Assembly (NCBI GenBank): GCA_040398005.1
Contig: JBBAUX010000002.1
Span: 114,798 to 178,797 of the forward strand
Reading direction: 5' to 3'
DNA: 64,000 bases
Source of the DNA: Opitutales bacterium
GTDB lineage: Bacteria > Verrucomicrobiota > Verrucomicrobiia > Opitutales > UBA953
Each line of letters starts with the position of its first letter. The first letter of the stretch is position 1. Positions 27,001-30,000 of this stretch are shown piece after piece. The position numbers are program-made.

Positions 27001-30000
27001 TAAGTCCGCACAGTTTCCGCTGGGTGCGTAGACGGTGTGATAGGCTTTTTTAATTTCGGCAATCACATCGTTGCTCAGTCCGCGTCGGCGCATGCCCACT
27101 AAGTTTAAACCCGAGATTTGATTGCGTGAGTGAGCCAAACCCTGTGGCGGAACGTCTTCGGTGATGACGGCATTACCCGAGGTCATAGAGCCTTTGCCAA
27201 TTCGACAGAATTGATGAACGGCTACTCCACCACTCACAAAGGCATGGTCGCCCACGTTGACGTGTCCACCCAACATACAGCCATTCGCAAGGATGACATG
27301 ATCACCCGTGGTGCAATCGTGCGCGACGTGCGCACCCGCCATAATAAAATTATTTTTACCAATCCGTGTCGTGCCGCCTTCAGAGGTGGCTCGGTGGATG
27401 GTGACGTGTTCTCGAATGACCGTGGCATCACCGATGCTCACATTCGAAGAGGTCGAAGAATTAAAATGAAGGTCTTGGGGGTCGCCGCCAATGACGCTGA
27501 AATGATCTATTTTTACTTTCTCTCCAAGCATGGAACCTTTTTTGATGATAGCCTGTGCGCTAATTTCACATTCATTGCCGATTACGACATTCGCTTCAAT
27601 AATTGCCAATGGCCCGATAACAAGGGCGTTTCCTAGTCGGGCAGAGGGATGAATCTGGGCGGAAGAATGAATCACTTGGAAGACGGATTATTAGAGAATA
27701 GTTCTAGCTGCGCCGGTTTGACCATATCGTAGACGCGCAGCAGGCGTAAAAGTTGTAAGGTGTCGGAGCGAGCGTAGCTTTGATTAGATTCTACATTCTG
27801 AATCATGTTTTCCAAAATCGTTCGGAAGGTAATCACATGGTCAACGCCACTTTGTTTAAGCAGCGCAATACTTTCGGCACGTTGGGGTTCTTGGGCAGGC
27901 AAACCAGGGAGAATTAATATTTTAGATAAATTTTCATTTTCCGTTTGGCGTAATTCGGCAAAAGCCGCTTTGGCTGCTTCGACGGCTTCTTGTCGGACAA
28001 ACTCCAGCAAGTCTCCTTTGCGGATCATCGTGGGCGTAATCGCTTTCGTGGTATGCCAGGCTTTAACCGCGACGACCGCAGCGGTAATTCCTGGCAAGTC
28101 GGCGGAGAAAAGTTGAAAAGGAAGTTGGACGTCACGACGGGGCGATGGATTGATCACGTATAAATCGCCTTCTTCGTCGGCTCGCTTGCGTCGTGATTGC
28201 ACGGCGTACTTGCGTGATTGGCGCACGAAGAACCCGTTCACTTCAAAGTATTCTCTTACTAGGCTGTCGTCGAAACCCGCCATAGTCAGAACATTGCCAC
28301 CGAATGGTCGTTCGGGTCAATCTGCGATACTCGATTATAAAACGAAATCGGCCGGTGCAATGGCCACGGTGAATTCACCTTTCATTGAACCAGCTTTCAG
28401 CAGCGGGACTAATTCGCCAAGCGGAGCTGTGCGAATCGTTTCATGTAATTTAGTCAGTTCGCGTCCGACGCAGACGACGCGGGCCGGGCCAAGAATCTCG
28501 AGCATCTCATCAGCAAAATCGGCCATCCGATGGCAGGATTCATGGAGTACGATTGTTTCATCGCCTTGCAGTGATTGTTCGAGGAAGCGTCGACGTGCGG
28601 CTGACTTCGGCGGGAGAAAACCGATAAAGCGAAATGCATTCGTGGGGAGTCCCGAGGCGGAAAGCAGGGCGATGATGGCGCAAGGACCGGGCAGGGGAGT
28701 GACCGTGAGTTTCCGTCGACGGCATTCGCGTGTCACCCGGAATCCTGGATCACTAATCCCAGGCGTCCCCGCATCGGTAATCAACGCTACGACTTGTCCG
28801 GCCGAAATTTTTTCTGCTAACTCGATGGCCACTTCTTTTTCATTATGCTCATGGTAGGCAATCATCGGTTTAGATATTCCGATGTGTTTGAGTAACCCAA
28901 TGGTGACACGCGTATCTTCGCAGGCGATTAAATCGCAGGCGGTTAATTCTTTTTTAATTCGATCAGTGAGGTCACCCAGATTTCCTAACGGCGTAGCTAC
29001 GACTAAAAGTCGTCCACCTGCCTTGGGATTTGACCCAGGTTCATGTGAACCTGGCGTAGTCATTAGCGGTAACCAGATCCGCCAGTCGGACCCATCATGC
29101 CGGGAAGACCACCTTGCCACGAAGCGGGTTGCGCTTGTGGTAAAGTCGAATCGATAGGCTTTTCGGTGGTCTCACAGCCCGCCAATGCCATTAAGACAAG
29201 GGCGAGGACAATGAGATGAACGAAACGCATGCGAATTAGTTGTTCGCGATTTTACCGGAGATTGGCTCGAGGGTAACCACTGCACCATCAGAGAATTGGT
29301 CAACTTCGGAATCGATTAAAATTTGAGCGATACACTGAGCAGCTTGAACGGACTCAACGCGAACTTTACCTACGTCAGCACCATTGACTTGTACTTTGAA
29401 AACACTGCGGGCTTTAATACCGTCTAACTCACCGACGGAGAAACAGACTAATCCATTATCTGAATCAAGACGAACCACGCGGGTTTTGACGGTTTCTGGA
29501 GCGAACTCCGCTTGTAAGGAGTTGACCGAAGGTTGGGAGAGTGGATCGCGCGGATAGGAAGGCTTGGTGCCAGTGGAGCTTAAGAATGAATTGTAAAGTT
29601 GAGCGTAGAGTTGAACAACGGCATTGCGGCTCTCCTCAGCTTTAGTGGTCTTAGCAATTTCGGTATCGAGTTGTTCTTTGGTGAACATGCTCGCGGTTTT
29701 TTCTTTCTCCTTAACTAACTCCTGTTTGATGGAATTGAGTTCGGAGGTAAGTGAATCTTTTTTGCTGGTTATATCAGCTAATTGGGAAGTGAGTTCATCG
29801 CGCTTACGGGTGAGTTCAGCTACGTTGCCTTCGAGACCTTCAACCTTAGCATTCAAGCCCTCGATTTTGGTTTTCTTATCAGCCACATCTGCTTCGAGGT
29901 CTTTTTTGACACCTTCGAGCTCAGCGATTTTGGTACGTTTTTCGTCGACGATATTCTTCAGCTTGGACCCGATGACTTCCATGCGCTTATCGAATTGTTT

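What a model noticed while it worked through the whole genome (the two positions that open the first line are those of the whole stretch)
27672..28283. New PD-(D/E)XK-fold family ending in a beta-clamp motif
g00424 (203 aa, no Pfam/NCBIfam/Swiss-Prot match) has a restriction-endonuclease-like fold and ends in a conserved QxELF sliding-clamp motif that docks in the clamp's peptide pocket in a model. It defines a single-copy clamp-tethered nuclease-like family of Opitutales and other Verrucomicrobiota classes, where it lies next to topA.
Evidence so far: 27 of 41 order genomes, 22 of 22 Opitutales and 20 of 99 others in a phylum sample; in 14 of those 20 it is within 3 kb of topA (coordinates of calls 42, 82). 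AlphaFold pLDDT 82; best matches XisH Z 8.9, AF1548 7.4, Card1, FokI, NucS; ESM Atlas nearest named clusters all PD-(D/E)XK. Qx[EDG][LM]F in the last 22 aa of 25 of 27 homologues versus 4 of 1299 proteins. Complex with DnaN of a close relative: ipSAE 0.61, best control 0.00 (mark reached by 116 of 157 solved and 2 of 215 mismatched pairs; contacts agree >=55%, partner pLDDT >=68); interface = residues 190-196 against clamp 171-176, 368-374.
(Added by a program. Inside this text positions count along the whole contig: contig position 114,798 is position 1 of the stretch shown here. "Call 12" and the like, gene names such as g00115 and contig names such as C1 are that model's own, and its searches are not shown. 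The text may have been shortened before it was handed on; [...] marks where a part breaks off. The agent that wrote the report below was given it as the finding of a first reader that could run no searches.)

Follow-up and report, generated by a model that had tools for sequence, protein, structure and literature searches.

The report
Clamp-tethered, probably inactive nuclease family
This gene encodes an unnamed, single-copy bacterial protein shaped like a restriction enzyme that has mostly lost its cutting residues but keeps a tail typical of proteins that dock on the DNA replication clamp, so it is a new and testable candidate partner of the replisome in several little-studied phyla.

Summary
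The 203-aa ORF (27672-28283, minus) is real. It has no family match and a PD-(D/E)XK fold (best Z 9.1). It ends in QLELF, a beta-clamp motif that is rare at C-termini in this genome and switches between the five- and six-residue forms across the family. The family is wider than reported: other orders of the class, other classes, Hydrogenedentota (40 of 51) and smaller phyla. Two corrections. The gene's direct neighbours are aroB and dprA; topA follows dprA, and none of these flanks it in this window. The family also has two forms. A sporadic tail-less form, often in defence-like loci, keeps the full E..DxD..ExK site. The inherited, clamp-tailed form has mostly lost it, by different residues in different lineages. 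In the query's own lineage the clamp motif is invariant while D40 and K74 drift. It does not replace MutL, YraN or RuvC. Best reading: a clamp-tethered, largely inactive DNA-binding adaptor at forks or recombination intermediates; an atypical active site is not excluded. The clamp complex model was not re-run here. New variant of a known kind; interest 0.62.

The parts
27672..28283 (-). Gene for the 203-aa PD-(D/E)XK-fold protein with C-terminal clamp motif
   Evidence: ORF; 437 relatives at 50% clustering; model pLDDT 87.9; fold matches
27696..27710 (-). Codons of Q192-L-E-L-F196, the beta-clamp-binding motif, after the last helix in a low-confidence tail
   Evidence: Sequence; Q192, E194, L195, F196 invariant in 25 of 25 near-lineage representatives; pLDDT 62-68 in the tail; consensus from 10.1101/2025.08.20.671105
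28266..28268 (-). D6, helix-1 acidic position (Glu in 19 of 20 tail-less members)
28164..28172 (-). E38-G-D40, start of core strand 2 (the 'PD' position; D-x-D in 20 of 20 tail-less members)
   Evidence: D40 kept in only 15 of 25 near-lineage representatives
28062..28070 (-). A72-V-K74, the (D/E)xK position, with Ala in place of the acidic residue
   Evidence: K74 kept in 15 of 25 near-lineage representatives
28335..29120 (-). rsmI, upstream neighbour in this genus; not a family-wide neighbour
   Evidence: TIGR00096 over cut-off; shared with the same-genus genome only
26896..27675 (-). lpxA, downstream neighbour; its start overlaps the gene's stop by 4 nt
   Evidence: lpxA within 1.5 kb in 24 of 30 same-order loci
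25982..26899 (-). pdxA, next gene of the same run
   Evidence: within 1.5 kb in 25 of 30 same-order loci

Best explanation
An old, vertically inherited, non-essential housekeeping protein built on a restriction-endonuclease-like fold. Its C-terminal QLELF binds the peptide pocket of the beta clamp (DnaN), which places it on DNA behind the replication fork or at clamps left at repair and recombination sites. In this lineage and most others the cutting site has decayed, so it most likely acts as a non-catalytic DNA-binding or scaffolding adaptor, probably in replication-coupled recombination or repair. Shown by computation: gene, fold, motif, conservation pattern, gene order. Inferred: clamp binding (about 0.85), loss of catalysis in this protein (about 0.6), the pathway (about 0.5).
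For: Motif: 71 of 85 homologues without the canonical triad carry a Q-hydrophobic-x-hydrophobic-hydrophobic tail in a set collected by whole-protein phmmer; 99 of 107 full-length genome loci; 150 of 159 loci, 100 five-residue and 50 six-residue, 147 at one fixed offset, against 8 of 1282 own-genome ORFs. Both lengths are the recognised consensus forms (10.1101/2025.08.20.671105, passages). Host clamps keep invariant T171-D-G-R-R175, P250, M370, P371 in 27 of 27 (their role as pocket residues is recalled). Decay of the site: the tail-less sister group has D38, D40, E72, K74 in 20 of 20 (D40, E72 and K74 define the group; D38 and E6, 19 of 20, do not); clamp-tailed groups lose different residues: E72 in 30 of 30 same-order genomes, E72 and K74 in 37 of 37 other-class genomes, E6 in 20 of 20 and D40 in 20 of 20 Hydrogenedentota. 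In the query's lineage Q192, E194, L195, F196 are invariant in 25 of 25 representatives while D40 and K74 are kept in 15 of 25, below the median column. Context: aroB-gene-dprA-topA(-xerC) recurs in two classes and an unrelated small phylum. Non-essential: aroB directly abuts dprA in two genomes without the gene. Precedent for inactive members of the fold, such as RecC: PMC3424549 (passages).
Against: An atypical site is possible: D6, E38, D40 and K74 are all present in the query, in 65 of 69 relatives above 70% identity and in 26 of 30 same-order genomes, matching the EcoO109I-type EPD-xxK variant (PMC3424549). Nine of 150 clamp-tailed loci keep the canonical triad, as does 1 of 20 further loci. 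Only 58 of 159 loci match the published consensus strictly; most others have Met at position 2 or Phe at position 4. The 159 include metagenome loci found partly with the motif itself as search pattern, and the tail-less loci were found with the catalytic motif, so those counts are not unbiased. The most constant neighbour is aroB, an unrelated enzyme, and the dprA link is lost in the same order (0 of 30 loci within 1.5 kb) and was not seen in 15 Hydrogenedentota loci, so the pathway assignment is weak. DNA binding is inferred from the fold only.
Confidence: 0.48

Rival explanations
1. An active but atypical nuclease tethered to and stimulated by the clamp, working like NucS/EndoMS: D6, E38, D40 and K74 form a migrated EPD-xxK site that cuts flaps, D-loops or mismatches behind the fork.
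For: The four residues are kept together in 26 of 30 same-order genomes and 65 of 69 close relatives; a few clamp-tailed members keep the full triad in the aroB-dprA-topA context (L127, L259); EndoMS is the top Foldseek hit, E 0.012; clamp-activated nucleases of this fold exist (PMC8228993).
Against: 0 of 34 relatives at 56-70% identity, 0 of 37 other-class genomes and 0 of 20 Hydrogenedentota keep that set; D38 is ancestral in the intact group, so E38 is not a compensating gain; MutL, YraN and RuvC are present in carriers.
Confidence: 0.25
2. A clamp regulator: the protein occupies the clamp pocket to compete with or recruit other partners (replication control, or clamp-assisted transcription as for phage Mu C), and its fold serves only as a scaffold or ligand sensor.
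For: The motif is the best-conserved feature in the query's lineage; no Hda over cut-off in 5 of 5 genomes tested, three of them carriers; clamp use for transcription is reported for Mu C (PMC12867686, search listing only).
Against: Hda is also missing in the two non-carriers tested; a basic patch follows the motif in 34 of 37 other-class members, which suits DNA contact; clean loss in several lineages.
Confidence: 0.15
3. The tail is not a clamp motif but packs on the protein itself or binds another partner, and the gene order is inertia of a housekeeping operon.
For: aroB is the most constant neighbour; 101 of 159 loci miss the strict published consensus; a few distant homologues have a decayed tail.
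Against: The tail is predicted flexible, is absent from the folded tail-less group, and alternates between the two known clamp-motif lengths.
Confidence: 0.1

Closest known systems
NucS/EndoMS (PF01939)
   Same: PD-(D/E)XK fold with a C-terminal sliding-clamp motif (PMC8228993, PMC4929162, passages); fold match Z 5.6 to the NucS nuclease domain.
   Different: No N-terminal DNA-binding domain; no sequence match; triad mostly lost; co-occurs with MutL in 42 of 42 carriers, whereas NucS and MutS-MutL are largely exclusive.
AF1548 / Mrr-like stand-alone restriction-endonuclease domains
   Same: Best structural match (Z 9.1, rmsd 3.2, 118 residues); nearest named Atlas clusters are Mrr_cat, GAPS4 and NERD types at 0.79-0.83, leads only.
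   Different: 9% identity, no Pfam hit; added helical hairpin and clamp tail; housekeeping context.
YraN (PF02021) and CoiA, PD-(D/E)XK D-loop nucleases of natural transformation
   Same: Small stand-alone proteins of the fold tied to the DprA pathway (10.1101/2024.02.06.579203, passages); YraN-type 3fov matches at Z 6.1.
   Different: A separate YraN gene is present in 42 of 42 carriers; YraN and CoiA are reported active; the word clamp does not occur in that paper.
RecB nuclease domain and inactive RecC
   Same: RecB carries a six-residue clamp motif in its PD-(D/E)XK domain (10.1101/2025.08.20.671105); RecC is an inactive member of the fold (PMC3424549).
   Different: Those are parts of a large helicase-nuclease; this is a 200-aa protein with the motif at the free C-terminus.

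Membership tests
PD-(D/E)XK superfamily | [quoted passage not shown] | tested here: met
   Model H2-15, E19-22, E40-44, E68-73, helices, E120-125; top matches of 48161 chains are of this fold; Z 9.1 is modest
PD-(D/E)XK superfamily | Canonical Asp on strand 2 with (D/E)xK on strand 3 | tested here: not met
   Query has D40 but A72-V-K74; met in 20 tail-less relatives and 9 of 150 tailed loci
PD-(D/E)XK superfamily | Migrated site of the EPD-xxK or PD-xxK-E type | tested here: inconclusive
   E38-x-D40..K74 in query and 26 of 30 same-order genomes, 0 of 34 mid-distance relatives; position 79 is Thr; side-chain geometry not available
PD-(D/E)XK superfamily | Metal-dependent phosphodiesterase activity | not testable with these tools
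   needs biochemistry
beta-clamp clients | Motif Q-phi-x-[LM]-[FL] or Q-phi-x-[LM]-x-[FL] in a flexible segment | tested here: met
   QLELF at 192-196, tail pLDDT 62-68; consensus
beta-clamp clients | Motif conserved in orthologues above background | tested here: met
   71 of 85, 99 of 107, 18 of 20; background 8 of 1282
beta-clamp clients | Physical binding to the DnaN pocket | not tested
NucS/EndoMS | N-terminal DNA-binding domain plus nuclease domain; PF01939 | tested here: not met
   Single domain from residue 1; no Pfam hit; PF01939 in 0 of 5 genomes
NucS/EndoMS | Occurs in genomes lacking MutS-MutL | tested here: not met
   MutL matched in 42 of 42 carriers, one below cut-off; MutS not searched
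YraN/UPF0102 | PF02021 match; sole copy of that function | tested here: not met
   No hit; separate YraN in own genome and 42 of 42 carriers
Mrr_cat / AF1548-like | Sequence or profile match to PF04471 | tested here: inconclusive
   No Pfam hit; fold and Atlas leads only
Known anti-phage systems (tail-less sister group) | Match to a PADLOC model | tested here: not met
   0 of 11 proteins beyond one chance-level hit, E 0.009

The most novel reading that the evidence does not exclude
A restriction-type nuclease and a replisome factor are two states of one family: the clamp-tailed, inactivated form is an adaptor that brings DprA/RecA recombination intermediates of natural transformation or gap repair to the beta clamp, supplying the unknown link between D-loop resolution and replication, while the tail-less form is an undescribed mobile defence nuclease.
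Probability: 0.13. Interest if true: 0.85.

Novelty: new variant of a known kind. Interest (0 to 1): 0.62.

Why it matters
Bacterial clamp partners are known mostly from E. coli, Bacillus and Actinobacteria. This adds an unannotated family, core in Opitutales, other Verrucomicrobiota orders and Hydrogenedentota, with a motif that can be tested with one peptide. It also gives a natural pair for studying how an enzyme becomes a scaffold or the reverse: an intact, mobile, tail-less nuclease and a housekeeping, clamp-tailed relative with a decaying site. The tail-less group is itself an unnamed candidate defence nuclease. Sources name homologues in cultured species (P0352; P0422), so genetics may be possible.

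Tried and rejected
Displacement of a known function: MutL 79 of 80, DprA 77 of 80, YraN 78 of 80 panel genomes, each in 42 of 42 carriers; RuvC, ComM and ComEC 5 of 5; NucS 0 of 5; Hda 0 of 5 over cut-off. RecF: 35 of 80, present in 19 of 20 same-order carriers, 1 of 22 other-class carriers and 0 of 15 non-carriers picked as their presumed relatives, so no clean exchange. Missed diverged copies: the profile found 0 of 80 of the 197 genomes negative to the single protein; the other 117 were not re-searched; no remnant near dprA in 6 non-carriers. Phage origin: no relative in viral contigs or PHROGs. Fused forms: none among 8000 longer candidates, weak evidence. Solved relatives by sequence: none significant. 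Foldseek gave no match at E 0.001 for either model; the wide structural search was not obtained for the tail-less model. Direction of evolution: the tail-less group is 17 of 18 rows at SH-aLRT 98 in a quick tree but one side of a branch in only 39% of bootstrap trees in a careful one, AU p 0.53; no outgroup, so domestication versus escape is unresolved. Expression: RNA-library contigs of relatives at 90-95% identity cover the gene, which does not show transcription. Promoter and terminator scans were at chance level. Earlier scan findings: none returned. Literature: eight searches listed no paper whose title or abstract start describes the family; a Kiritimatiellia synteny preprint (10.64898/2026.10.06.756941) has no occurrence of dprA, topA, aroB or xerC in its main text (supplements not seen). 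The library lacks most subscription papers.

Full report
Observation. The window holds a 203-aa ORF at 27672-28283 on the minus strand, between rsmI and lpxA, whose start overlaps its stop by 4 nt. It has no Pfam, NCBIfam, PADLOC or PHROG match beyond chance level, and no family is shared by any two of 98 aligned homologues. It is a real gene family: 437 clusters at 50% identity. dnaN is not found in this 94%-complete assembly but is present in 4 of 4 relatives, and none of a relative's dnaN locus matches the assembly, which points to an assembly gap.

Fold. AlphaFold on the 98-sequence alignment gives pLDDT 87.9, with a low-confidence tail after the last helix. The wide structural search ranks PD-(D/E)XK proteins first: AF1548 Z 9.1 (rmsd 3.2, 118 aligned), 2okf 7.9, FokI 7.5, LlaBIII 7.0, NucS 5.6. 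Foldseek finds nothing at E 0.001; EndoMS is first at 0.012. Atlas leads are of the same clan but below 0.9. The scores are modest, but the intact site in the sister group below confirms the assignment.

Range. In a 301-genome phylum sample the gene is in 58 of 62 same-order genomes and 45 of 238 others, nearly always once. A class sample with the profile gives 62 of 151, including whole families of other orders (17 of 17, 10 of 11). A profile search of 80 of the 197 negatives found none. Outside the phylum it is in 40 of 51 genomes of the phylum of a Hydrogenedentales record, 2 of 3 of a small uncultured phylum, and in records titled Abyssobacteria and Poribacteria. The order name Opitutales comes from source names of homologues; one other-class homologue is named from a Kiritimatiellia species (class recalled).

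Clamp motif. The protein ends in QLELF at 192-196. The classic motif is QL[S/D]LF, revised to Q-phi-x-[LM]-[FL] and Q-phi-x-[LM]-x-[FL] (10.1101/2025.08.20.671105, passages). Allowing Met at position 2, and Phe at position 4 of the long form, 150 of 159 full-length loci carry it, 100 in the short and 50 in the long form, 147 at one offset from the last helix; 58 match the published consensus strictly; 2 further loci were dropped for lack of an anchor. Background in the own genome is 8 (relaxed) or 4 (strict) of 1282 ORFs in the last 25 residues. About a third of those loci came from a scan that used the motif as one of six patterns; sets free of that bias give 99 of 107 with a somewhat broader pattern (11 partial loci and 3 duplicates left out) and 18 of 20. 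A switch between the two known lengths at a fixed place is what a shared binding pocket would select (inference). Host clamps keep the TDGRR and C-terminal MP residues in 27 of 27 (pocket role recalled).

Two forms of the family. Among 98 diverse homologues from whole-protein search, 13 have D40 with (D/E)72-x-K74, and 12 of these lack the tail; 71 of the other 85 have it (relatives are not independent, so no p value is claimed). The tail-less form has E6, D38, D40, E72 and K74 almost invariant, a canonical site with the helix-1 glutamate (PMC3424549, passages), and folds alone at pLDDT 90. It is sporadic: records titled Gammaproteobacteria, Chloroflexota, Omnitrophota, Actinomycetota and several archaea, and 3 of 71 genomes in the family of a Methanolobus record, seed included. 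Of 18 such loci, 6 lie near restriction-modification, McrBC or DNA methylase genes (L073, L074, L076, L080, L082, L099) and others near WYL, PIN, integrase or intron genes; several have ordinary neighbours. These loci were found with the catalytic motif as pattern.

The tailed form has mostly lost the site, in different ways: same-order genomes lack the acid at 72 (30 of 30); other-class genomes lack it and K74 (37 of 37); Hydrogenedentota lack E6 and D40 (20 of 20 each); seven Abyssobacteria-like loci keep D40, (D/E)72 and K74 but lack E6. In the query's own lineage, 25 representatives below 85% identity all keep Q192, E194, L195, F196, D6, R10, E14, S173, R180 and Y185, while D40, K74, W76 and H77 are kept in 15 of 25 and E38 in 11, below the median column of 0.76. 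Against this, the query itself, 65 of 69 close relatives and 26 of 30 same-order genomes keep D/E6, E38, D40 and K74, which fits the EcoO109I-type EPD-xxK variant, and a few tailed members keep the whole site (L127, L259, P0132). Trees with those columns and the tail removed cluster the tail-less rows but do not fix monophyly or root.

Gene order. In 38 of the 45 other-class carriers, aroB lies within 3 kb in 33, dprA in 31 and topA in 23; dprA is within 300 bp in 26. In 20 loci from other orders of the class, aroB is upstream in 20, dprA and topA follow in 9. L085 has aroC-aroK-aroB-TPR-gene-dprA-topA-xerC; Hydrogenedentota and Abyssobacteria-like loci have aroB-TPR-gene. Same-order loci, read only to 1.5 kb, have lpxA in 24 and pdxA in 25 of 30. 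In the own genome aroB, dprA and the best topA-like hit are on other contigs. Two non-carriers have aroB directly before dprA, so the gene can be lost. The topA link is thus indirect, and since aroB is the steadiest neighbour the order may partly be inertia.

What it does not replace. In an 80-genome panel with 42 carriers, MutL, DprA and YraN are in all 42; RuvC, ComM and ComEC are in 5 of 5, NucS and Hda in 0 of 5; RecF follows lineage, not the gene. It is therefore neither a NucS substitute for mismatch repair (PMC8228993, passages) nor the YraN/CoiA resolvase (10.1101/2024.02.06.579203, passages).

Mechanism and verdict. Most likely the tail binds DnaN and holds a nuclease-shaped but largely inactive domain on DNA near forks or recombination intermediates, as a binding or scaffolding factor (0.48). 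Rivals: an atypical clamp-stimulated nuclease (0.25), a clamp regulator (0.15), no clamp link (0.10). It works like NucS in design and is not a member of that family. No description was found in eight literature searches of a library that lacks most subscription papers. It is a new variant of a known kind: solid family, strong motif, unknown function. Interest 0.62.

Noticed in passing
L233:1619-4510 (own genome, contig C6): A 964-aa AddB-like PD-(D/E)XK protein, directly before an AddA-like helicase-nuclease, carries an internal QLELF at about residue 765 inside its nuclease domain, recalling the clamp motif reported in RecB.
   Followed up: partly
L071-L077, L080, L082-L084, L094, L096, L098-L100, L124, L125: The tail-less sister group is an unnamed PD-(D/E)XK nuclease family with an intact site, patchy across bacteria and archaea and often near defence genes, with no Pfam or PADLOC model; some copies are split or truncated (L074, L096, L099).
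   Followed up: partly
80-genome panel: RecF was not found in 36 of 37 genomes of the other-class groups picked as carriers or their presumed relatives, while present in 23 of 24 same-order genomes.
   Followed up: no
L041, L042, L047, L059, L064; L050, L064: Small GxxExxY (PDDEXK_3) genes are inserted between the gene and dprA or between dprA and topA, and a small two-gene pair that looks like an AbrB/PIN toxin-antitoxin module (by eye) sits between the gene and dprA.
   Followed up: no
L006, L008-L011, L013, L014, L025: DUF2851 is the upstream neighbour in one same-order family, 8 of 30 loci.
   Followed up: no
L079, L081, L086-L093, L095, L097, L102, L110-L123: A conserved 274-aa TPR gene lies directly upstream in Hydrogenedentota and Abyssobacteria-like loci, and Hydrogenedentota members have a long acidic extension after the motif; a possible partner.
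   Followed up: no
window 24707-25129 (-): A 140-aa secreted-looking protein with three repeats of an 'SEISxHCGxC' unit and no confident family.
   Followed up: no
own genome, contig C7 near 50761: The best topA-like hit in this assembly is only 29% identical to the other-class TopA, so it may be another type IA topoisomerase or TopA may be unassembled.
   Followed up: no
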